From the IMG/VR virus record IMGVR_UViG_3300032073_000028, positions 1 to 62,020 of that record: a stretch of DNA of 62,020 nt. One strand, given 5' to 3'. Within the stretch, counting starts at the first letter, position 1. Every line of letters begins with the position of its first letter. Positions 40,678-59,294 of this stretch are shown piece by piece. This stretch comes from a virus. Lineage: Duplodnaviria > Caudoviricetes. The notes under the pieces were generated by a model. That model was not told the origin of the DNA and searched no databases. It was given only the letters and a program-made list of their open reading frames with translations. The position numbers and the translations under genes are program-made.

Positions 40678-40832
40678 GATGCTGTTATTAATATATAGAG
40701 TACGCAACCAATTAATCCTACAAGAGATACAAATGCAATCTTATAGTTTGATTCCATTTGTTTTCTACTTCTTCCTTGATTTCTAATTTCTTCTAATTGT
40801 TTTTCTACTATTTTTTTTGTTCTTTCATTCAT
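40674..40832 (-). CDS. Small protein with C-terminal TM helix (52 aa)
   Basis: MNERTKKIVEKQLEEIRNQGRSRKQMESNYKIAFVSLVGLIGCVLYILITAS; overlaps both neighbours. Confidence 0.6.
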   Translation of the reverse strand: MNERTKKIVEKQLEEIRNQGRSRKQMESNYKIAFVSLVGLIGCVLYILITAS

Positions 40833-41772
40833 AACTTGATGTATTTAATAATCCACTATACTCACATTTATTTGAAGTGATGTAAGGTAATATGGATAGT
40901 TCTTTAGCTTTAGCCTCAACCATAACATCAACATCATTACCATATAGATTAGGTAAATCGTTAATATAATCAGAGTGAGCCTGTTCTTTAATCTTTTCGT
41001 TACCTTCGTGTAATCGTTTAGATTCTGAATAGTGTACTATTGGTTTGATACCTTTTGGCCAAGTTGATATTGCCAACTCAAGTGCCTCTTGTTCTGTTAA
41101 TCCACCTGTACAAAACTGATGGTGATGATAATCAAATACAATAGGAATACCAATTCTTTTATGTATGTACATCAAATCTTTTACTGAGTACATAGATGCT
41201 TTATCATCATTCTCTACTGTTAATCTACCTTGTACTGCTGGAGAGAGTTTCTCAAAGTTCTTACAGAATCTATCCATGGCAGATAATTTATCACCATATA
41301 CACCATTACAATGAATGTTTAGTTTGTTGTATGGAGTACGAGATAATCCCAACATATCAAATACTTTACCATGTAATTCTAAATCGGTAATAGTGTTTTC
41401 TACTACATGCTCTCTTGGAGATACTAATACATTGAAGGGGCCGGGATGTGATGTAATACGAATACCATTATCAGTAGCATAATTACCACATGCCTGAAGT
41501 ATAGTTTTGATTCGTAAATAGTATGGAGAGTTTTCAATACCATATTCTGAAGCCCATGGAAATAAATCAGAAGATAATCTGAAACATTTTATGTTATGTT
41601 CGTTGTTCCATTGTAATATAGTAAATAAATCTCTAACATTTTGTAGAGATAACTCACCAGCATAATCAACACCCTTTTCTAAAAAGGTTCGTTTAATCAT
41701 ACTTCTGTTTGTTGTGATTCTTGGTTTCTGTTTACCAAGTGTCATATTAATACAAGCGTATCCTAAATTCAT
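40825..41772 (-). CDS. uvsE: UV damage endonuclease
   Basis: LGYACIN, FRLSS, HPG.F.VL, ENDD, FDYHH, HYSES, AHSD, VEAKAKE. Confidence 0.95.
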   Translation of the reverse strand: MNLGYACINMTLGKQKPRITTNRSMIKRTFLEKGVDYAGELSLQNVRDLFTILQWNNEHNIKCFRLSSDLFPWASEYGIENSPYYLRIKTILQACGNYATDNGIRITSHPGPFNVLVSPREHVVENTITDLELHGKVFDMLGLSRTPYNKLNIHCNGVYGDKLSAMDRFCKNFEKLSPAVQGRLTVENDDKASMYSVKDLMYIHKRIGIPIVFDYHHHQFCTGGLTEQEALELAISTWPKGIKPIVHYSESKRLHEGNEKIKEQAHSDYINDLPNLYGNDVDVMVEAKAKELSILPYITSNKCEYSGLLNTSSYE

Positions 41773-46673: not shown

Positions 46674-47357
46674 TTATATGGCGTTTCTATTACCATATTG
46701 TCTATATTTACTGCGTGGATGTAAATAATCGTTTAGTTCAAATGGGTCTAAATCTAATTCCCATTTGTTTATTATTTCAAAAGATTCTATTCTATCCTCA
46801 CCATATAAATCTTCATAGTATGTTATTGGAATATTTAATTGTTCAGATATTACTTTAATAGATTCGTGATGTTGGTCAAATTTATATCTTATAGGTGATT
46901 GTAAATCTATAAAATCTTGTGGGATTGTTTCCCAATGCCATTTATCGTGTGAATTTTTAACAAACTTGGGTTCTTTTGTTCTATCACCTGGCCAGGGTTC
47001 TTTGTGTACTTGATAGAATCTGTACATAAGATTTAACCAACTCTCCCAATGTTCTTGAATATTTTTTCTACTTAATAGAATTACTTTATCAAACTCTTTA
47101 GACCAATCAACATAAAACCCTTGCATTTCTTCATCGGTGTTTACATTTAGGTGGAGTGGTGTTTGATTTATTAAACATTTAATAACCACATTACCTTTAT
47201 CTTCTAATACTTTCAGAGGCCATTTGAACTCTTTGAATTCTTTAAAGATGGGTCTATGATAAAAAGGCTCTGATACCCTTACATCGAATTGTTCTGCGAT
47301 ACCATTTAATAATGATGATGTGCCTGTTCTACCTATACCTAATATTAATACTTTCAT
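46674..47357 (-). CDS. P-loop sulfotransferase-like protein
   Basis: ILGIGRTGTSSL...EPF...ILLSRKN...S...YEDL (Stf0-like pattern). Confidence 0.65.
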   Translation of the reverse strand: MKVLILGIGRTGTSSLLNGIAEQFDVRVSEPFYHRPIFKEFKEFKWPLKVLEDKGNVVIKCLINQTPLHLNVNTDEEMQGFYVDWSKEFDKVILLSRKNIQEHWESWLNLMYRFYQVHKEPWPGDRTKEPKFVKNSHDKWHWETIPQDFIDLQSPIRYKFDQHHESIKVISEQLNIPITYYEDLYGEDRIESFEIINKWELDLDPFELNDYLHPRSKYRQYGNRNAI

Positions 47358-48016
47358 GCATATTCTTGTAACAACCTTAATATTTCATCTAATGATTCGT
47401 GTCTGTGATTATCTAGTAAATTAACCGAATACACATATTGTGATTCTTTTACCTTTGGTACTTCGTGTATTGCAGAGTCATTTGGAAACTTTAAATCAAT
47501 CTGTTGTGGGTCTCCAGTTAGTATCATTGTAGAACCCTTTCCTAACCTACCTAGTACCATACTAAGTTGTTGTTTTGTTAAGTTTTGGAATTCATCTACA
47601 ATAACAACTGCATTTTCAAAAGTTCTTCCTCTAAAATGTGATAGAGATACCAATTCAATGTTTTCATCCGATTCCATCTTTTGTAGTATATTTGGTTTAT
47701 TATAAACCTTTCTCATATTAGAACGAATTGGAACTAACCAAGGCTCCATCTTTTCATCAAGTGAGCCAGGTAGATATCCATTATCTTCATTTGATACTGT
47801 TGGTCTTGTTATAATAATTTGATTAATCTTTCTTTGAAAGAACATATCTAAACCTATTTGAACTGCAAGTAGGGTTTTACCACTACCAGCCTTTCCTACT
47901 ACAAAGTTGTAGGGATGATATAAGATGTTTGTCTTTGCCATCTTTTGTTCTTCTGATAGGTTTATTGAAAACTTTACCTTACCTTTTGGTGGTACTTTAC
48001 TTGTATTTAGAGTCAT
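47354..48016 (-). CDS. phoH: PhoH-like ATPase
   Basis: GKAGSGKT, ITRP, GYLPG...EK..PW..P, RGRTF, VDEFQN, GD..QID. Confidence 0.95.
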   Translation of the reverse strand: MTLNTSKVPPKGKVKFSINLSEEQKMAKTNILYHPYNFVVGKAGSGKTLLAVQIGLDMFFQRKINQIIITRPTVSNEDNGYLPGSLDEKMEPWLVPIRSNMRKVYNKPNILQKMESDENIELVSLSHFRGRTFENAVVIVDEFQNLTKQQLSMVLGRLGKGSTMILTGDPQQIDLKFPNDSAIHEVPKVKESQYVYSVNLLDNHRHESLDEILRLLQEYA

Positions 48017-48747: not shown

Positions 48748-51099
48748 TTATTTGTTGTGTACGATGATTCCATTAGCAACATATGAATGTAATCTATCTA
48801 CTGTTATATTATAAACTTTTTCTTTTGCATCAGAACGAACTATTCTAATATCTTCTATCTCTTTCCATTCAGAGTCTATACATATACTATCTCCTACTTG
48901 AAGTATCTTTGGTTGTTTGTTTGATAGATAAGGTTCTTGGTTCTTATCTGGTACTAATGATTTCCATCCATCTTTCGTTAAGAATGGATGTTCTGGTGTA
49001 AACTCAATACCAGTGTTATCTATTGTATATAGTGATGGTTCATCACCTAATAGTTTACAAGCATCTGCATGAGAGCCAACAAAATGTGAATCATCAGTTG
49101 CAATTACTTCAGCTGAATCTATCTTTCTTCCATCCCATCCTAGTACTTCATCACCTACAACTATATCTTCTATATTTTTAACATCGCCATTTGATAAGGA
49201 TATATGTGTACCTGCTGCAAAACAAGTTTGAGGTACACCACCTGGTGGCATTCTGTTATGTGCCAAGAAATCTTCTACAAAGAAGTTATTGTTACCATCA
49301 ACTTCATCTAGGTTATAAACTGTTGTTGTATCTTCTTGTTCTATTATATCTGTAATAGCAACTCCATATCCATCAAGGTGTAATACTTCATCTCCTATTA
49401 AAATTTGTTCTACATCAATACCACTATCTTCTTTTGTTTGATTAGGGTAATAAGATGAGTATCCTTTTCCACATACAAATAAAGGGTGGTCTGGAGTACC
49501 TGTTAATTCAGTTCCATTTTCAAATACATACTTTACAACATTTTCATTTGATTTGATTCTAATCTTTTTAACTTCTTTATATTCTGAAGTATCGTTATCG
49601 TGATTATATGATATTACTTTATCACCTACCTTTACATCTTCTATGTTTGTAATACCTTTAGATTCTACATGAATCTTACTACCAGCAATAAAACATGGTG
49701 CGTTGTGTACAATAAATGGTGATGATGATGATACGAAATATGTATCAGTATCTTCCACATCGACTCTGTAAAATTTATGTGTATCTATATCACCTGTTAC
49801 AAATATGTTAGATTGTGATATCGATAATAAATCTCCATCCTTATCTATAAGGTAATCATCAGAAGCTGTTATCCAATACGCTGATTTAAATTTAATCTCA
49901 TTTGATTGTGTATTGTATGTTAATAAGTTTTTATTTGATGATACATATATTTCTTCACCAGTTCCTAGTGTTAGTTCGATACCAGTACCATACCAAAGTG
50001 ATGATGATGATAGTGTATCAACAACAGATGATGTTACTATTGAATTATCTGGTAAATCTCTACCATCTTGTGACCAAGATGAAAATACATCGTAATCATC
50101 TGTATCTGGTGAACCACTTAAGAAGAATGATTTAATTGTATCTCCCGTTGATATATCTCCTATTCCAACAAAAGTATTATCTACCTTTTGAATGTTTTCA
50201 GATGATAATATAGCATCTTGTACTAATGGGTTATGTTTTACAAAGTTCGTTGTATATTCAAAGTAATGTTTTATTGGTACATCAACTACTGCAGTGTTTG
50301 ATGATAGTGAAGATATGTTTGGTATATCATACATTGCATCAATCTTATAACTACCTAAACTTACATAGTTTATTTCACTTCCATAAAGAATACCAAATTG
50401 TCTAATTGCTTGTACCTTTCCATTTGAAATTTGAGTTGGGTTAGTATGATATTTTTCTATATATCTATCACTTCTATCTAAATAGTTAAAGAAGTAATCA
50501 TCGGTAATATCTGTTGATGATGAATCTGCAGTTCCTACGAATTTGTGAAATGTTATTGGGGAGTGTCTTTCAGATGAATCTTTTTCTACTATATCTGGAA
50601 AAGTATCACTTGCGTTTACAGATGAAGAAAATGTGTTTCCTTCCCATGCACTACCACTATATCTAAATTCTGGTACAGATGATTCGTTATCGTTATCTTT
50701 AAATATCTTTAGAACTTCTATTCTTTGTTTACAATATGTACTATCAAATATAGCGTTTTCATCATATGCCAATCTTAAGATAAATCTATCTGATTCATCT
50801 GTTACATTTGTTGGATATATTGTGTTTCTATCTTCTTCTATTTTAACTATCTCACTTATAAATGTGGCATCGTTACCGATTACTGAAGTTAGTTTTTCAA
50901 TAAAGTTTCTATGAAATACTTTATAAACAACTGTTAGTTTTGTAATGTTGTTGCTTTGCAATAAAGATATAAACGCTGTAAAATCTAAACGATTATTTAA
51001 TATATCGTTTATCATTGCAGTGTCTGTATTGAACTCTAATAGTCTTAACTTATTAGATTCATCAATAATAAAATCACTTGAAAATAAAGTACCTTTCAT
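48748..51099 (-). CDS. ATP-grasp-like N-terminal domain plus three tandem HINT (intein-like) domains
   Basis: SDFIID...LRLLEFNTDT (glutathionylspermidine synthase / permuted ATP-grasp-like); HINT ends FIVHN466, FLAHN615, IIVHN782; starts C469FIAG and C626FAAG; block-B TPDH and TPEH. Confidence 0.85.
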   Translation of the reverse strand: MKGTLFSSDFIIDESNKLRLLEFNTDTAMINDILNNRLDFTAFISLLQSNNITKLTVVYKVFHRNFIEKLTSVIGNDATFISEIVKIEEDRNTIYPTNVTDESDRFILRLAYDENAIFDSTYCKQRIEVLKIFKDNDNESSVPEFRYSGSAWEGNTFSSSVNASDTFPDIVEKDSSERHSPITFHKFVGTADSSSTDITDDYFFNYLDRSDRYIEKYHTNPTQISNGKVQAIRQFGILYGSEINYVSLGSYKIDAMYDIPNISSLSSNTAVVDVPIKHYFEYTTNFVKHNPLVQDAILSSENIQKVDNTFVGIGDISTGDTIKSFFLSGSPDTDDYDVFSSWSQDGRDLPDNSIVTSSVVDTLSSSSLWYGTGIELTLGTGEEIYVSSNKNLLTYNTQSNEIKFKSAYWITASDDYLIDKDGDLLSISQSNIFVTGDIDTHKFYRVDVEDTDTYFVSSSSPFIVHNAPCFIAGSKIHVESKGITNIEDVKVGDKVISYNHDNDTSEYKEVKKIRIKSNENVVKYVFENGTELTGTPDHPLFVCGKGYSSYYPNQTKEDSGIDVEQILIGDEVLHLDGYGVAITDIIEQEDTTTVYNLDEVDGNNNFFVEDFLAHNRMPPGGVPQTCFAAGTHISLSNGDVKNIEDIVVGDEVLGWDGRKIDSAEVIATDDSHFVGSHADACKLLGDEPSLYTIDNTGIEFTPEHPFLTKDGWKSLVPDKNQEPYLSNKQPKILQVGDSICIDSEWKEIEDIRIVRSDAKEKVYNITVDRLHSYVANGIIVHNK

Positions 51100-54107: not shown

Positions 54108-54682
54108 AACACTGTCTTTTTTATTTCAAATGATTCATGTGGTAGCCACATTACTAATACATATCGTGTACCTGAAATTAGTGGGTGAACTTGATGATAC
54201 AATCGTGAGTCGAACATTACCGCATTACCTCTTTGTTTACTTATTTTAGTTTCGTTATTGTTCGTATCCCAAACAGATAAATCACCACCTTCGTATTCAT
54301 CTTCATTAGATAGTTGTATTAGTATGGTTCTATATCTCCACTCTGTTCCTTTTGAACCCCTATCTTGGTGTCTTTTAAACTTACCACCTTTTGTGTATTT
54401 TAAAATTGAAGCTATGTTTTTTGATTTATCGTAATCTAATTCTTCTTGGTATCTAAACTTTTGAGTTTGTATTATTTTCTTAACTCCAAACTGTTTTAAG
54501 TTTTCTGTTATAAAAGAATCTTTAGGTATTAAAACTTGTCTTTGTGTAGATATTCTAAATGGATTTATACTATGTAGTTCTTGGTCTATACTGTTGACAG
54601 TTTTACTTTCAAACCATCTACCTCCTTCAAGATTCATAATTTGTTCACATTCTTTATCAGTAAATAATCTCTTTTCTATCAT
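54104..54682 (-). CDS. 2OG-Fe(II) oxygenase (PKHD/P4H-like)
   Basis: Y..GG.F..HQD...IQLS..D.YEGGDL...FDS...H.V.P..SGTRY.LV.W; start taken at MIEKRLF (ATGA overlap). Confidence 0.85.
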   Translation of the reverse strand: MIEKRLFTDKECEQIMNLEGGRWFESKTVNSIDQELHSINPFRISTQRQVLIPKDSFITENLKQFGVKKIIQTQKFRYQEELDYDKSKNIASILKYTKGGKFKRHQDRGSKGTEWRYRTILIQLSNEDEYEGGDLSVWDTNNNETKISKQRGNAVMFDSRLYHQVHPLISGTRYVLVMWLPHESFEIKKTVL

Positions 54683-54885
54683 ACCATTTCCCAATCTATA
54701 TCTTCTATCATTTCGCAGAACCAATATGTTCCACTTGAATGTTGTGTAAATACAGTATCTACTCCTAACCATTCTTTTACCATCCTTACATCCTTTACTC
54801 TATCCATAGGATATTCTGCATGAATTACATACAATCTACCATTTATGTTTTGTACTGGTCTCTTGAATGATGGGTATCTACTCAT
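54679..54885 (-). CDS. Hypothetical protein
   Basis: 68-aa ORF overlapping its neighbours. Confidence 0.65.
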   Translation of the reverse strand: MSRYPSFKRPVQNINGRLYVIHAEYPMDRVKDVRMVKEWLGVDTVFTQHSSGTYWFCEMIEDIDWEMV

Positions 54886-55072
54886 CGTTTCCTATTATGT
54901 AATAGTTTCGAATTGCAACCATTAACATAATTACTCCAAACGATTCTAATATATTTAGATTTGACCATATTGGGAATATAGAAATCTTAGTAAAGAATGA
55001 TAAAGCTACAGCAGCTGTAGCAAATAATAACATTCCTTTTGTATAATCGTATTGTGGATTGTTCATATTCAT
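54878..55072 (-). CDS. Small two-TM membrane protein
   Basis: 64 aa, hydrophobic. Confidence 0.6.
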   Translation of the reverse strand: MNMNNPQYDYTKGMLLFATAAVALSFFTKISIFPIWSNLNILESFGVIMLMVAIRNYYIIGNDE

Positions 55073-55085
55073 GTTTTTAATTTTG

Positions 55086-55157
55086 TAGCCCGTAGGAGAG
55101 TCGAACTCCTCTTTCTAGGATGAAAACCTAACGTCCTAACCGATAGACGAACGGGCC
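55086..55157 (-). tRNA. tRNA-Glu(TTC)
   Basis: GGCCCGT...TTAGG-TTTTCAT-CCTAG...AGGAG-TTCGACT-CTCCT-ACGGGCT-A; CCA not encoded. Confidence 0.95.
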
Positions 55158-55164
55158 AATATTG

Positions 55165-55238
55165 TGGAGGATATCGGAGTCGAACCGATGACCTCTTCGG
55201 TGCAAGCGAAGTGCTCTAGCCAGCTGAGCTAATCCCCC
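55165..55238 (-). tRNA. tRNA-Ala(TGC)
   Basis: GGGGGAT-TAGCTCAGCTGG...CTTGCAC...GGTTCGACTCC..ATCCTCC-A, with G3:U70. Confidence 0.95.
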
Positions 55239-55393
55239 ATATTTTTATGTTTCTGTTTACGAGTATAGTTTTTCTTACTCTTCACAACTTTCTCGGTCAT
55301 CTTCTTACCGATTTCGTGGGATAATTCGCCGATAGTTATATCGTCCCAATCAACCTTCTCTTGATATCGGTTCTGTTTGTTCTGTTTCTTCAT
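55229..55393 (-). CDS. Basic 54-aa ArfA-like protein whose stop codon lies inside tRNA-Ala
   Basis: MKKQNKQNRYQEKVDWDDITIGELSHEIGKKMTEKVVKSKKNYTRKQKHKNMGD*. Confidence 0.55.
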   Translation of the reverse strand: MKKQNKQNRYQEKVDWDDITIGELSHEIGKKMTEKVVKSKKNYTRKQKHKNMGD

Positions 55394-55541
55394 CACTTAC
55401 CAACTCCATTGTTGTGTTACTTCTATTCCTCAGATATTGCTTCTCAGTCCATTGAGGTGTTCTATCTGTCACAAACTCAATAAACTTATTAGTTTGAGAG
55501 TTTTCTGTTTCTTCTTGTATTCTATATCTTAGTTTTCTCAT
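55350..55541 (-). CDS. Hypothetical protein
   Basis: 63-aa ORF. Confidence 0.6.
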   Translation of the reverse strand: MRKLRYRIQEETENSQTNKFIEFVTDRTPQWTEKQYLRNRSNTTMELVSDEETEQTEPISREG

Positions 55542-55542
55542 A

Positions 55543-55761
55543 TTAATCGAACCATTGGTCTCTATTAGTTTTGATTTTATATATACCTGTTTTTCTCAAT
55601 ACTTCTCGTTTCTTCTCCTTCATTTCTTTTACTCTTGGATTCTTCTTTCTTTTTTTATGTTCAGACATACCATCAAGATATTCAAGAAATCCATCAAAAT
55701 CTTTTTTACCTAGTTTATCCAATTCCTCATCACTTAGAGGATTCTTAGGGTCATACTTCAT
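55543..55761 (-). CDS. Hypothetical protein
   Basis: 72-aa ORF. Confidence 0.65.
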   Translation of the reverse strand: MKYDPKNPLSDEELDKLGKKDFDGFLEYLDGMSEHKKRKKNPRVKEMKEKKREVLRKTGIYKIKTNRDQWFD

Positions 55762-55979
55762 TATATGTTTTTCGGAATTGAGGTTGCGTTGTTTTGCATC
55801 TTCATATCATTTAAAAGATTTAGAAATTGTTGTTTTGTATATTTTCTTCCATATACATAATATTCCACATCTCCATTCTCTTTTATTATTGCCGGCCCAT
55901 CCCAACTATGGAATTTACTGTCAAATGTGTGATATTGTGTGCCGTTTGATTTAAATGATTTGTATTGTTTACTTCCCAT
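55761..55979 (-). CDS. Small H..DGPA-repeat protein
   Basis: FHSWDGPAII..NG..EYY..G motif common in phages; directly behind early promoter 6. Confidence 0.7.
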   Translation of the reverse strand: MGSKQYKSFKSNGTQYHTFDSKFHSWDGPAIIKENGDVEYYVYGRKYTKQQFLNLLNDMKMQNNATSIPKNI

Positions 55980-56006
55980 ATCTATTATATTTTTAAAGGT
56001 TTATAC

Positions 56007-56040
56007 AGCTAATATACGAAATTAAATCCATATATCCAAA
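56007..56040 (-). promoter_or_regulatory. Early promoter (copy 6)
   Basis: TTTG-N20-TATATTAG-CT. Confidence 0.8.
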
Positions 56041-56094
56041 TGTTTTACTATCTTTTTTGTCATAACTCTTAATGTCGGTTCGCTTCGGACTTTT

Positions 56095-56913
56095 TTATCT
56101 TGATATATATTGATAGTTTTCTAGTTGTTCTAAGAACATCCATCCTTGTGCACCATGGCCTTTCTCGTTTTGATGATTGTCTAGTATCTTTATATCGTTC
56201 CAATACGAAGGATAGTTGCCCATCCAATCGGTAAAGTTGTCAAACTCCCCAAATTTTAGTAGTCTACTCCCCATACTCTCTTTATAAGTATTCCAAAAGG
56301 GATTTAGGTTTCCTTCACTCTTACTACCGTCATCGTTCCAGTAGAAGTTAAATACATCTCCATCGTTACTCCATGTGTATATGTTGGGATGTAGGTTACT
56401 GAGCGATAGGATTGTATCCCTATACTGTAAAAAGTTAAGCAACTCTTGTATCTGTACCCAAGATTTGTTTTTTTTATTGAACCCTATCTCATCGAGTCTA
56501 TCGACCTCTGAGGTATATAGTGGGTAATCCTTTCTTATGTAGTTGTAGTGCTCGGGTACTATTGTTGACAGAATTTTGGCATCGCTTTTTTCTTGTTCAT
56601 GTAGGGAGTAGTTAGAATCGAGGTTAAAAATTCTTGTTCGATTTCTTGGAGGTTCTTCTATTATAACTAAATCGTTCTTTCTCCAATTCTTAGCAGTCCG
56701 AAGAATCATTTGTTGTGTATATAACCAACCTTCTCCTCCAGTAGCAAAGTGTGTTGCCTCATCTAGTTCACAATGGTTGTTATCCCATATTCTTTTATAG
56801 TCAAGATTAAACTTATTCGCTATAATACCATACCATGTATCATCATGTGAGAGAACTCTATCGTTCCAATTATCAGAGTATGAACAACCGTATATCCAAA
56901 GTTTGTTTTTCAT
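56095..56913 (-). CDS. SGNH-hydrolase-like protein
   Basis: LWIYGCSYS near the N-terminus and DNHQNEKGH near the C-terminus. Confidence 0.55.
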   Translation of the reverse strand: MKNKLWIYGCSYSDNWNDRVLSHDDTWYGIIANKFNLDYKRIWDNNHCELDEATHFATGGEGWLYTQQMILRTAKNWRKNDLVIIEEPPRNRTRIFNLDSNYSLHEQEKSDAKILSTIVPEHYNYIRKDYPLYTSEVDRLDEIGFNKKNKSWVQIQELLNFLQYRDTILSLSNLHPNIYTWSNDGDVFNFYWNDDGSKSEGNLNPFWNTYKESMGSRLLKFGEFDNFTDWMGNYPSYWNDIKILDNHQNEKGHGAQGWMFLEQLENYQYISR

Positions 56914-57532: not shown

Positions 57533-58390
57533 CTAAGGGGTTAAAAATCTTTTTAAAACCTTATTCTCTTTTAGTACATCGAGGTGTACATAGTAACATT
57601 CCCACTCTATTCTTTTCAAGTGATTTACATTTATCGTTTTTTCTTCTCCTGTCTGTTGACAGATAAAATGACCCCAAGGTGATAAAGTATATGCTAGTCC
57701 AGTCTCTTGGTCTAACCATATTCCTTTTAGATATGGGTTATAAATTCTAACATAATCATAACTATCAAAAATAGAGTCCACCGTAGGAGGCCAATAATGT
57801 TCTATCGCAAAGAATCCTATTTTATATTCATCTTGTGCAAGTAGTTCTTTTAACATATGTTCTTCAATTGAGAACGAATCTCCAAAACTTCCTTCAATAT
57901 CAATACCCATAAAGTTAATAAACTTAGGAGCCTTGTTATCTTTCAGTATTGTACATATATCTTGACCACCAACTTTATATGATTCTTTATGCATATCATC
58001 TGCTTTCAGTATAACATGAGATAAAGTGTGAGCTTTTCCTTCAAAAAACGAATGTTCTCCTTGATAATCTCGTGGTACAATGGCTGATGGTGATACTGTA
58101 CACTTACGATTCTTTCTTAAATCATCAATAAACGCCCAATTAGGTTCTATACATAACCCTTTCCAACCCTTATCTTCTAAAGCTTTCGTTTGAGATTGTA
58201 AAATTCCATCAGTAGCACCACAATCTACGAAGTATCCATCACTAATAAATGGGTAAACTACCTCATTAACTAACTTATCGTTGAAAAAATCGTGGTAATA
58301 TTTATCAAATTTAGTACCTTGTATATCTTTTAGGTACTTATCTCCAGTTGAATCCACATCCGAAGTGTCCAAAATTGGCTGTTCTTTCAT
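57533..58390 (-). CDS. FkbM-family SAM-dependent methyltransferase
   Basis: FVDCGATDG..SQT..LE..GW.GLCIEP...IDIEG. Confidence 0.85.
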   Translation of the reverse strand: MKEQPILDTSDVDSTGDKYLKDIQGTKFDKYYHDFFNDKLVNEVVYPFISDGYFVDCGATDGILQSQTKALEDKGWKGLCIEPNWAFIDDLRKNRKCTVSPSAIVPRDYQGEHSFFEGKAHTLSHVILKADDMHKESYKVGGQDICTILKDNKAPKFINFMGIDIEGSFGDSFSIEEHMLKELLAQDEYKIGFFAIEHYWPPTVDSIFDSYDYVRIYNPYLKGIWLDQETGLAYTLSPWGHFICQQTGEEKTINVNHLKRIEWECYYVHLDVLKENKVLKRFLTP

Positions 58391-59294
58391 ATATTGGTTG
58401 TTTTAAATCTAGTTGTTCTATGATTCCATTAGGTGAAAGGTCATATCCAGTCACAAATTGGTGTTCTCCATCCACCAAAGCACTGGCTTGAAGAGGTTGA
58501 TTATACCCAATTGCATACGCAAGTTGAACTATTACCTCCTTAGCCTCCTTCTCTTTTAGTATATCTACGGCTATTTTTCTTGCCATATAAGCAGCTGAAC
58601 GGTCAACTTTACTAGCATCCTTCCCGCTGAACGCTCCTCCACCTAGTGGAACTCGTGGGCCATAGTTATCTACGGCCAATTTTCTACCTGTCAACCCTGC
58701 GTCTGCGGAAAATCCTCCGATATCCCAATCTCCAGCTGGGTTACAATGTAGTGCATCTATTCTATATTGAGGAAATTGAGAGAAAAATTTCTCACATTTC
58801 TTTTCTAACTGTTCTTTTGGAGCTCCTTGAAACGAAGCAACAACTCTTAATGAGTTACCATTCATGGTAATTTGAGTTTTTCCATCTGTTTGGTAACTAG
58901 CATATAGATATCTATTGAGATTTCTAGCCAAAAAATACTCTTGTGGAACATATTCTTGGTTCTCGTTACACGCATAGCCAATCATAATACCTTGGTCTCC
59001 CGCCCCACCAGTATCAACTCCTTGAGATATCTCTGGTGATTGGGTTTCTAAGTGGATTGTAACATCATCTATGTTAGAAATTTGTTTAACTATTCTTTTA
59101 ATATCACCATCGTTGAGTTTTGCTTCGGTGGTAACTTCTCCTGTAATGAACACTTTTCCATGTCCTCCCATTGTTTCTACGGCAACTCTTGAATTTGGGT
59201 CTTGTTCTAAACACAAATCTAAGATTGCATCGGATATCCTATCACACATCTTATCAGGATGTCGTGGGGATACAAATTCTGCAGTTCTAATCAT
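58338..59294 (-). CDS. metK: S-adenosylmethionine synthetase
   Basis: HPDK.CD.ISD, GAGDQG, D.GLTGRK, GGGAFSGKD..KVDRS, GHFG. Confidence 0.97.
   Translation of the reverse strand: MIRTAEFVSPRHPDKMCDRISDAILDLCLEQDPNSRVAVETMGGHGKVFITGEVTTEAKLNDGDIKRIVKQISNIDDVTIHLETQSPEISQGVDTGGAGDQGIMIGYACNENQEYVPQEYFLARNLNRYLYASYQTDGKTQITMNGNSLRVVASFQGAPKEQLEKKCEKFFSQFPQYRIDALHCNPAGDWDIGGFSADAGLTGRKLAVDNYGPRVPLGGGAFSGKDASKVDRSAAYMARKIAVDILKEKEAKEVIVQLAYAIGYNQPLQASALVDGEHQFVTGYDLSPNGIIEQLDLKQPIYERTANFGHFGCGFNWR

What the first reader, a model, noticed from the sequence alone, without database searches (positions are those of the whole stretch)
55165..55393. ArfA-like ORF whose stop codon is inside tRNA-Ala, so RNase P would create a non-stop mRNA
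Seen: a 54-aa ORF missed by the track ends KVVKSKKNYTRKQKHKN-ATG GGG GAT TAG. The G of that last ATG is G1 of tRNA-Ala (55238) and the TAG lies at 55231-55229, inside the tRNA. Established: E. coli ArfA has a basic KKGKGSY.RK.KH tail and is made from a non-stop mRNA (RNase III cleavage), so tmRNA keeps it low until trans-translation fails; RNase P cuts immediately 5' of tRNA G1. Inference: a phage ribosome-rescue factor regulated by tRNA 5' processing, cut just after the conserved basic motif.
Basis: partly seen in the sequence, partly recalled or inferred. Interest (0 to 1): 0.78.

Follow-up and report, generated by a model that had tools for sequence, protein, structure and literature searches.

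The report
Small phage gene ending inside tRNA
A real, conserved 54-residue gene of a marine phage borrows its stop codon from the tRNA-Ala gene that follows it and carries a tail resembling the bacterial ribosome-rescue factor ArfA, but most relatives have ordinary stops and unrelated neighbouring genes overlap tRNAs the same way, so the overlap looks like genome compaction rather than a purpose-built switch.

Summary
The ORF at 55393..55229 (-) ends ATG GGG GAT TAG. The G of that ATG is G1 of tRNA-Ala(UGC), and the TAG lies inside the tRNA.

The ORF is a real gene. It has 59 representative clusters, and its substitutions are almost all synonymous.

ArfA likeness is real but only at motif level:
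- An enterobacterial ArfA profile ranks family members as the top 9 of 2,047 six-frame segments (window E 0.003).
- 0 of 5,000 composition-matched shuffles reach the observed score.
- The Pfam ArfA model hits 0 of 58 members, and hhalign gives 13-17% probability.

The proposed regulation by RNase P is not supported as a family trait:
- Only 10 of 77 related loci put the stop inside the tRNA. These 10 are the window's clade plus L002.
- 66 loci have their own stop after an acidic tail. One locus is too short to tell.
- Two unrelated gene families in sister phages run into tRNAs the same way: a DUF6580 membrane protein in 11 loci and a Cys/His-rich ORF in 2.

Best reading: an ordinary compaction overlap. 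RNase P cutting would still produce non-stop transcripts as a by-product. The protein may dock in the ribosome's mRNA channel like ArfA (about 40%, untested). Interest is moderate.

The parts
55229..55393 (-). 54-codon ORF plus its TAG. It encodes a small basic protein, MKKQNKQNRYQEK...KHKNMGD. An alternative GTG start lies at 55396.
   Evidence: Listed. It has 22 close homologues and 59 representative clusters. Substitutions are synonymous.
55289..55330 (-). Conserved core, residues G22-K35 (GELSHEIGKKMTEK). It is predicted to be helical. Its KKMTEK segment aligns to RQRVEK of ArfA.
   Evidence: Invariant and near-invariant columns. The AlphaFold2 model has a helix at residues 21-33, mean pLDDT 76.6.
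55241..55282 (-). Basic tail, residues K38-N51 (KSKKNYTRKQKHKN), the ArfA-like motif. K48-H49 aligns to ArfA K44-H45.
   Evidence: The same part matches Pfam DUF7230 positions 18-34 at E 0.066.
55238..55239 (-). Predicted RNase P cleavage site, between U55239 and G55238 (tRNA G1). The upstream fragment would have no stop codon.
   Evidence: The cleavage is inferred from established RNase P specificity and was not observed.
55229..55231 (-). TAG stop codon of the ORF, at positions 8-10 of tRNA-Ala.
55164..55238 (-). tRNA-Ala(UGC) with a G3:U70 pair. No CCA is encoded.
   Evidence: ARAGORN and Rfam at 67.3 bits. The acceptor stem was read.
55085..55157 (-). tRNA-Glu(UUC), 6 nt after tRNA-Ala.
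   Evidence: and Rfam at 53.4 bits.
55404..55407 (-). GGAG, a possible ribosome-binding site 10 nt before the ATG.
   Evidence: Read. This is an inference only.
55350..55541 (-). Upstream 63-codon ORF that overlaps the first 15 codons of the small gene in another frame.
   Evidence: Listed. The shared stretch is almost invariant among the window, L001 and L002.

Best explanation
This is a genuine, conserved small-protein gene at the head of a tRNA cluster in an uncultured marine phage. The record is 62 kb at about 31% G+C, and CheckV estimates it as 35% complete.

In the window's clade the short acidic tail and the gene's own stop, which most relatives have, are missing. The reading frame now abuts tRNA-Ala, and the tRNA supplies the last codons (Gly, Asp) and the TAG. 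I read this as genome compaction inside the tRNA cluster, a habit of this phage group that also affects unrelated genes. I do not read it as a switch built for this gene.

A mechanical consequence remains (inferred). Transcripts cut by RNase P before a ribosome has terminated become non-stop messages, and their 51-residue product would be tmRNA-tagged. Transcripts translated before cutting give the 54-residue protein. Its KGD/MGD end resembles the KDD/KDDE ends of relatives.

As for function, my best guess (inference, about 40%) is that the protein acts on ribosomes as ArfA does. Its Lys/Arg-rich tail with the Y-x-R-K-x-K-H motif would lie in an empty mRNA entry channel, and the invariant KKMTEK segment would contact a release factor.
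For: The gene is real. It has 22 close homologues and 59 representative clusters, and changes between the window, L001 and L002 are synonymous.

The overlap is derived and not family-wide. Of 77 related loci (15 viral and 62 metagenomic):
- 10 have the stop inside tRNA-Ala: L001, L002, L101 and L103-L109.
- 66 have their own stop after a 2-17 residue acidic or aromatic tail.
- 1 (L102) is too short to tell.
Among the 66, a tRNA follows after 2-6 nt in 8 loci and after 17-65 nt in 12. The spacing is therefore a continuum from -10 nt upward. On the tree the overlap sits in the window's starred clade and in L002, which is sister to a clade with its own stops. That requires at least 2 changes.

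The overlap is not gene-specific. Among 113 tRNAs in the 77 loci, 23 have an ATG-started ORF of 45 or more codons running into them:
- 10 are this family.
- 11 are a DUF6580 membrane protein (Pfam E 4.8e-48) running 22 nt into tRNA-Glu.
- 2 are a Cys/His-rich ORF running into tRNA-Ala with the same ...MGD*/MGN* end.

Evidence for ArfA likeness:
- phmmer against the PDB places ArfA third (E 0.32), aligning residues 9-54 to ArfA 4-51.
- An ArfA profile scores the window peptide at 14.4 bits, and no shuffle of 5,000 reaches that. The family profile scores ArfA(1-55) at 14.0 bits, again with no shuffle of 5,000 reaching it.
- In the six-frame scan of the window plus L001-L015, the 9 best of 2,047 segments are all family members (window 14.3 bits, E 0.0033).
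- In the alignment, KKMTEK falls on ArfA RQRVEK and K48-H49 on K44-H45. The review PMC8012679 (passages read) names Q27-E30 as the RF2-recruiting strand and the KH motif as binding a pocket of the mRNA channel.

The gene keeps company with tRNAs: 52 of 77 loci have a tRNA within 491 nt downstream.
Against: Against the ArfA-like function:
- The Pfam ArfA model matches 0 of 17 and 0 of 58 members at E<=10 and nothing in the window's six frames. E. coli ArfA scores 89.5 bits as a control.
- Family profiles find no ArfA in the PDB at E<=10.
- hhalign gives only 17.4% and 13.5% probability (P 0.0014 and 0.0021) over 23-26 columns.
- The KH pair is not invariant. By my count, 20 of 77 loci have KY or KS instead.
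- The six freshwater-type members L010-L015 score only 2.6-2.7 bits with the ArfA profile.
- The tails of relatives are conserved as protein (for example DDWYPDNY and FDDYGYYPDGDM). In ArfA the stretch after the KH motif is dispensable.

Against pure compaction:
- The overlap is kept in all 10 informative loci of the window's clade plus L002, down to 74% protein identity, always with the same junction.
- The RNase P cut would fall exactly after the last conserved residue.

No RNA-end data exist for this region.
Confidence: 0.45

Rival explanations
1. The protein is a phage ArfA-type rescue factor, and its synthesis is deliberately gated by RNase P. Cutting at tRNA G1 makes the message non-stop, so tmRNA destroys the product unless trans-translation is saturated, as with arfA and RNase III in E. 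coli.
For: The anatomy fits. The cut would fall right after the last conserved residue, N51, which aligns to ArfA N47, and the review reports that only 46-48 ArfA residues are ordered on the ribosome. The junction is identical in 10 loci down to 74% identity. The ArfA-like motif exceeds composition. One bacterial DUF7230 protein (L098), from a family that shares this motif, has an intrinsic terminator inside its ORF right after its KHKG codons, an arrangement like that of BrfA.
Against: 66 of 77 homologous loci have their own stop, many with tails conserved at protein level. The overlap state is derived and changes at least twice on the tree. A DUF6580 membrane protein (11 loci) and a Cys/His-rich ORF (2 loci) run into tRNAs the same way, and for those genes such autoregulation makes no sense. 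The peptide does not meet the Pfam ArfA model. There is no expression or 3'-end evidence.
Confidence: 0.12
2. The overlap is compaction, and the protein has nothing to do with ribosome rescue. It would be a small basic nucleic-acid-binding or otherwise regulatory phage protein, and its resemblance to the ArfA tail would be convergence or chance in a Lys-rich peptide.
For: No curated family is matched above its cut-off. DUF7230 scores 13.8 bits against a cut-off of 27. phrog_20887 matches at E 4e-4 and has unknown function. Profile-profile probability is 13-17%. The KH pair is replaced in 20 of 77 loci. The most conserved block, GE..HHIGKKMTEK, has no clear counterpart in ArfA beyond a few identities. 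Acidic or aromatic tails are conserved in relatives.
Against: The ArfA profile singles out family members as its 9 best of 2,047 segments of these phage contigs, and no shuffle of 5,000 reaches the score. The alignment is co-linear over nearly the whole length, and the two conserved blocks fall on the two functional blocks of ArfA. E. coli ArfA itself touches the same part of the DUF7230 profile (positions 19-38) that the phage family matches.
Confidence: 0.3
3. The phage has tRNA-punctuated genes together with its own release helper. Several of its genes lose their stop codon when RNase P frees the downstream tRNA. The ArfA-like protein, always encoded in that same tRNA cluster, would release the finished proteins from these non-stop messages without tmRNA tagging.
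For: Three gene families in this phage group end inside tRNAs, 23 cases among 113 tRNAs. These include a 164-residue membrane protein whose Pfam domain is complete before the junction. The small gene lies next to these tRNAs in 52 of 77 loci. The ArfA-like motif is present.
Against: The loci were chosen through the small gene, so the co-occurrence is biased. No data show that RNase P cutting outruns translation. No activity is known. In the window itself only the small gene overlaps a tRNA.
Confidence: 0.08

Closest known systems
ArfA (alternative ribosome-rescue factor A, Pfam PF03889), E. coli YhdL
   Same: The size of the active form is similar: about 55 residues for ArfA against 51-54 here. 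The alignment is co-linear. Both have a Lys/Arg-rich tail with Y-x-R-K-x-K-H-x-N. An E-K pair aligns to the end of the RF2-recruiting strand. In this clade the message is predicted to lose its stop through an RNA-processing enzyme.
   Different: The peptide does not meet the Pfam model (0 of 58). The processing enzyme would be RNase P at a tRNA, not RNase III at a hairpin. Most relatives have normal stops and conserved acidic tails. There is no hydrophobic C-terminal extension. The gene is phage-borne in marine viral contigs, whereas I recall ArfA as a beta/gamma-proteobacterial gene.
BrfA of Bacillus subtilis
   Same: It is a small release-factor-dependent rescue factor that evolved independently of ArfA. 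It shares only the KH motif with ArfA and is made from a stop-less message (PMC8012679, passages read). This shows that the design can arise repeatedly.
   Different: BrfA loses its stop through an intrinsic terminator inside the ORF. No terminator-like site lies within 55229-55396. No sequence comparison with BrfA was possible because no tool-derived BrfA sequence was held.
Pfam DUF7230 (PF23876) and PHROG 2701 / 20887 / 18092 (all of unknown function)
   Same: 31 of 58 family members match DUF7230 at E<=10, best 1.3e-7. 7 of 58 match phrog_2701, best 2e-7. The match covers the basic K-K-x-Y-x-R-K-x-K-H-K part, and E. coli ArfA also touches that part at E 0.11.
   Different: The window's protein is below the DUF7230 cut-off (13.8 against 27 bits). 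Two proteobacterial DUF7230 proteins (L098, L100) show no profile relation to the phage family beyond the motif. No function is known for any of these families, and no paper mentions DUF7230.
tRNA punctuation of animal mitochondrial transcripts
   Same: Coding regions abut tRNA genes, and tRNA excision defines the mRNA 3' end, which can leave an incomplete or missing stop. This is recalled knowledge.
   Different: In mitochondria polyadenylation completes the stop codon. Nothing comparable is known for phages. Here a complete TAG exists, but it lies inside the tRNA.

Membership tests
ArfA (PF03889) | Scores over the curated Pfam ArfA cut-off (25.5 bits) | tested here: not met
   0 of 17 and 0 of 58 family members match at E<=10. 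The window's six frames give no match. As a control, E. coli ArfA scores 89.5 bits. HMMER's filters may hide weak matches. With filters off, my own enterobacterial ArfA profile gives 14.4 bits.
ArfA (PF03889) | Positively charged C-terminal stretch with a KH motif, which in ArfA lies in the mRNA entry channel | tested here: met
   The motif is present. KSKKNYTRKQKHKN aligns without gaps to KNKKGKGSYMRKGKHGN, with K48-H49 on K44-H45. It is not invariant in the family: 20 of 77 loci have KY or KS (my count). Binding to the channel was not testable.
ArfA (PF03889) | Central segment that adds a beta-strand to RF2 (Q27-E30 in E. coli) | tested here: inconclusive
   The invariant KKMTEK aligns to RQRVEK with only E and K identical. 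The free-peptide AlphaFold2 model puts part of this segment in a helix at residues 21-33.
ArfA (PF03889) | Made from a message that loses its stop codon, so that trans-translation keeps the protein low | tested here: inconclusive
   In the window's clade the only stop lies 3' of the predicted RNase P site. This is an inference with no RNA-end data. Family-wide it does not hold, because 66 of 77 loci have their own stop.
ArfA (PF03889) | RF2-dependent release on non-stop ribosomes, and synthetic lethality with loss of ssrA | not testable with these tools
   This needs biochemistry and genetics.
DUF7230 (PF23876) | Scores over the curated cut-off (27 bits) | tested here: not met
   The window peptide scores 13.8 bits, E 0.066, over profile positions 18-34 only. 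Among relatives, 31 of 58 match at E<=10, best 1.3e-7.
BrfA-type architecture | Intrinsic terminator inside the ORF ahead of the stop | tested here: not met
   No terminator-like site lies within 55229-55396. Such a site is present in the bacterial DUF7230 gene of L098.

The most novel reading that the evidence does not exclude
These marine phages run a tRNA-punctuated gene cluster. At least three gene families lose their stop codon when RNase P frees the downstream tRNA. The conserved ArfA-like peptide encoded in that cluster would be a phage-made release helper. It would free the finished proteins (and itself) from the resulting non-stop ribosomes and bypass host tmRNA tagging.
Probability: 0.1. 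Interest if true: 0.85.

Novelty: new variant of a known kind. Interest (0 to 1): 0.5.

Why it matters
ArfA, BrfA and ArfT show that small release-factor-recruiting peptides arose several times. The review read here expects more of them and notes that they are hard to find by sequence (PMC8012679).

A widespread phage family of this kind has 59 clusters at 50% identity, all of unknown function. If it is a rescue factor, it would be the first virus-encoded alternative rescue factor that I know of. My searches found no paper on one. It would also mean that phages manage the non-stop ribosomes produced during infection.

Separately, protein genes that recurrently end inside tRNA genes raise a concrete, testable question: how do translation termination and RNase P processing compete on one transcript? 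If the protein instead has another function, this is an ordinary overlap of a hypothetical gene with a tRNA.

Tried and rejected
- **Complex prediction:** the family alignment with RF2_ECOLI gave no verdict. It is not evidence either way.
- **RNA evidence:** all runs found were assembled contigs. Laid on 54600-56100, error-free RNA-library contigs cover 55294-55645 and 55420-55769. None bridges or stops at the ORF/tRNA junction. The tRNA-region contigs differ from the window and probably come from other organisms. DNA carry-over cannot be excluded. No conclusion on transcription or ends is possible.
- **Fold comparison:** Foldseek of the AlphaFold2 model against the PDB found nothing at E<=0.001. 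This is expected for one helix plus an extended tail.
- **Family profiles against the PDB:** no ArfA at E<=10.
- **tblastn against GenBank phages:** three family members found no match. A 467-residue neighbouring protein also found none. blastn of the region matched only tRNAs.
- **The single genome-contig scan:** I spent it on ArfA and it returned only enterobacterial ArfA. My ArfA profile is therefore narrow.
- **The last word-index protein search:** run on the L098 DUF7230 protein, it found only that protein.
- **hhalign of the two bacterial DUF7230 proteins:** compared with ArfA and with the phage family, it found nothing.
- **ESM Atlas:** only unnamed viral clusters, plus one DUF7230-bearing cluster at 0.89.
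- **NCBIfam:** no match.
- **Promoter scan:** no more promoter-like sites than shuffles give.
- **Supplementary data:** the supplements of PMC6514570, which could list further ArfA-like families, were not seen.

Full report
**Observation.** On the minus strand the window reads ...AAA CAT AAA AAT ATG GGG GAT TAG CTC AGC TGG.... The ORF listing gives an ORF at 55229..55396, which is 55 aa from GTG or 54 aa from the ATG at 55393. ARAGORN places tRNA-Ala(tgc) at 55164..55238 and tRNA-Glu(ttc) at 55085..55157 on the same strand. Rfam confirms both at 67.3 and 53.4 bits. G1 of tRNA-Ala is therefore the last base of the ATG codon (M52), and the TAG occupies tRNA positions 8-10. The acceptor stem read gives a G3:U70 pair. 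I recall this as the alanine identity element, and it fixes the 5' end.

**Is the ORF a gene?**
- The word-index search found 22 homologues of 69-100% identity.
- A profile of 17 members found 59 representative clusters at E<=1e-3 among 1.84 billion proteins.
- In the DNA alignment of the window with L001 and L002, differences within the ORF fall almost only on third codon positions.
- The first 15 codons overlap an upstream 63-codon ORF in another frame, and that stretch is almost invariant, as expected for dual coding.

The gene is real. The family consensus is M-(basic)-...W-D-D-M-T-x-G-E-x-S-H-H-I-G-K-K-M-T-E-K-V-x-K-S-K-K-x-Y-x-R-K-x-K-H-K-N. Conservation stops at KHKN.

**How general is the stop inside the tRNA?** I collected 15 viral and 62 metagenomic loci and located each ORF's stop and the next tRNA.
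- 10 of 77 loci have the stop inside tRNA-Ala with the same junction: L001, L002, L101 and L103-L109.
- L102 ends KGD* but is too short to show the tRNA.
- The other 66 have their own stop after a 2-17 residue acidic or aromatic tail, such as KDD, NIEDE, HWDDDE, WEKDLED, DTYDDWYPDNY and RFDDYGYYPDGDM.
- Among those 66, a tRNA-Ala or tRNA-Glu follows after 2-6 nt in 8 loci, 17-65 nt in 12, 104-165 nt in 8 and 350-491 nt in 14. None was found in the DNA held for the remaining 24, nor for L102.
- Of the 22 close homologues, 19 have tails that end GD/GA or share words with a reading frame of the tRNA. Three have unrelated tails.

On a maximum-likelihood tree of 54 distinct proteins, the overlap state sits in the window's starred clade and in L002, whose starred sister clade has its own stops. 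At least two changes are needed (short alignment, many open forks). The overlap is therefore a derived, labile extreme of a continuum of spacings.

**Is the overlap specific to this gene?** It is not. Among the 113 tRNAs of the 77 loci, 23 have an ATG-started ORF of at least 45 codons running into their 5' end.
- 10 are this family.
- 11 are a 164-residue membrane protein that runs 22 nt into tRNA-Glu. It is a full Pfam DUF6580 domain (E 4.8e-48) that is complete before the junction.
- 2 are a Cys/His-rich 55-57 residue ORF that runs into tRNA-Ala and ends ...EMGD* or ...NMGN*.

The base before G1 is T in 5 of the 6 junction types I read and A in the other. ORF-into-tRNA abutment is thus a habit of these tRNA clusters.

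**ArfA likeness.**

For:
- phmmer of the peptide against PDB sequences ranks ArfA third, at E 0.32. The alignment is co-linear, residues 9-54 to ArfA 4-51. The top hits (Ski3, E 0.027) are clearly spurious, so that E-value alone proves nothing.
- I took E. coli arfA from NC_000913.3 and built a profile of 12 enterobacterial ArfA sequences.
- With filters off, this profile scores the window peptide at 14.4 bits, and the family profile scores ArfA(1-55) at 14.0 bits. No composition-matched shuffle of 5,000 reaches either value.
- In an unbiased scan of all 2,047 stop-to-stop segments of at least 30 residues in the window plus L001-L015, the nine best ArfA-profile hits are all family members. L001 scores 15.0 bits (E 0.002), the window 14.3 bits (E 0.0033) and the others 6.3-7.9 bits.
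- The alignment puts KKMTEK on ArfA RQRVEK, K48-H49 on K44-H45 and N51 on N47.
- According to the review PMC8012679 (passages read), Q27-E30 recruit RF2 by beta-strand addition, the KH motif binds a pocket of the mRNA entry channel, only 46-48 residues are ordered on the ribosome, and ArfA, BrfA and ArfT arose independently.

Against:
- The Pfam ArfA model matches 0 of 17 and 0 of 58 members.
- Family profiles find no ArfA in the PDB.
- hhalign gives 17.4% and 13.5% probability over 23-26 columns.
- KH is replaced in 20 of 77 loci (my count).
- The six freshwater-type members L010-L015 score 2.6-2.7 bits.

In addition, the ArfA idea came from this same motif, so the statistics are not an independent test. 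I conclude that the resemblance is real at motif level. It does not amount to family membership, and common descent cannot be told from convergence.

**Other family links.**
- 31 of 58 members touch Pfam DUF7230, best 1.3e-7. The window scores 13.8 bits against a cut-off of 27.
- 7 of 58 match phrog_2701.
- E. coli ArfA touches the same part of the DUF7230 profile at E 0.11.
- DUF7230 was found in 2 of 401 sampled genomes of the phylum of an enterobacterial handle (an overlapping sample gave 1 of 301 over the cut-off).
- One of these genes (L098) has an intrinsic terminator inside its ORF directly after its KHKG codons, with the stop 30 codons later. This is a BrfA-like layout.
- The other (L100) has a normal stop after an acidic tail.
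- Neither relates to the phage family or to ArfA by hhalign.

**Structure.** AlphaFold2 on the 58-row alignment gives mean pLDDT 76.6, one helix at residues 21-33 and an extended tail.

**Context.** The record is an uncultured virus of 62 kb, about 31% G+C, estimated 35% complete. It was found in seawater and marine viral metagenomes. Nearby genes include an S-adenosylmethionine synthetase, PhoH, UvdE, a 2OG-Fe(II) oxygenase-like protein and an intein-bearing ORF. No other rescue or release-factor gene was seen among those scanned.

**Mechanism.**
- Shown: the gene, the tRNA and their 10-nt overlap; the distribution of the overlap among relatives; and the motif resemblance.
- Inferred: with no spacer, tRNA-Ala must be transcribed through the ORF. 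RNase P cutting then yields a message ending ...AAU AU. A ribosome on it would stall with an empty A site and be handled by trans-translation. Ribosomes that reach the TAG before cutting give the 54-residue protein. The balance between these two outcomes is unknown.

Most relatives, and unrelated neighbours, argue against a dedicated switch. I therefore read the overlap as compaction whose non-stop by-product is tolerated. The ArfA-like function is a plausible but untested lead (about 40%).

**Novelty.** My searches found no paper on a phage-encoded ArfA-like factor, on DUF7230, or on phage ORFs that end inside tRNAs. I read listings and abstracts only, apart from the passages of PMC8012679 and PMC6514570. 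Supplements were closed.

Noticed in passing
L003:2406-2897, L005:3208-3699 and nine further loci (L112-L115, L128-L131, L144): A DUF6580 membrane-protein gene (Pfam E 4.8e-48) lacks its own stop. It runs 22 nt into tRNA-Glu, ending ...MLGSSIG*, with the tRNA's G1 again being the last base of an ATG (TTG in L144).
   Followed up: partly
L008:3131-3298 and L111:870-1043: A Cys/His-rich 55-57 residue ORF (…HWHPN…CKCGGWF…) runs 10 nt into tRNA-Ala in the same frame as the window's gene, ending EMGD* or NMGN*. It has no Pfam match.
   Followed up: partly
L098:1480-1710 (bacterial genome handle G176): A DUF7230 protein (E 5e-12) has an intrinsic terminator (8-bp stem followed by GTTTTTTGG) inside its ORF directly after its basic ...YIKHKG codons. 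The stop comes 30 codons later. This is the layout known for BrfA and suggests that DUF7230 may hold unrecognised rescue factors. It is one case only. A second member (L100:1438-1635) has a normal stop.
   Followed up: partly
window 55350-55541 (-): An upstream 63-codon ORF overlaps the small gene's first 15 codons in another frame. The shared 47 nt are almost invariant among three phages. Gene callers produced fused forms in some relatives (P0018, P0020, P0162).
   Followed up: partly
window 48748-51099 (-): A 783-residue ORF carries Hint and intein-splicing domains (Pfam AXH-like Hint 2.6e-23, Intein_splicing 6.4e-15). It is probably an intein-bearing gene whose host protein is unidentified.
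   Followed up: no
window 58338-59294, 47354-48016, 40825-41772 (-): Auxiliary genes: S-adenosylmethionine synthetase (three Pfam domains), PhoH (1.3e-49) and the UV endonuclease UvdE (6.3e-66).
   Followed up: no
L016:8435-8650 (E. coli arfA): E. coli ArfA itself gives a weak match to Pfam DUF7230 (E 0.11, residues 29-51 to profile positions 19-38). This is the same profile part that the phage family matches.
   Followed up: partly
window 55294-55769: Contigs assembled from two RNA libraries of one seawater sample match 55294-55645 and 55420-55769 with no differences. The phage sequence is therefore present in RNA libraries. DNA carry-over is not excluded, and nothing is shown about RNA ends.
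   Followed up: partly
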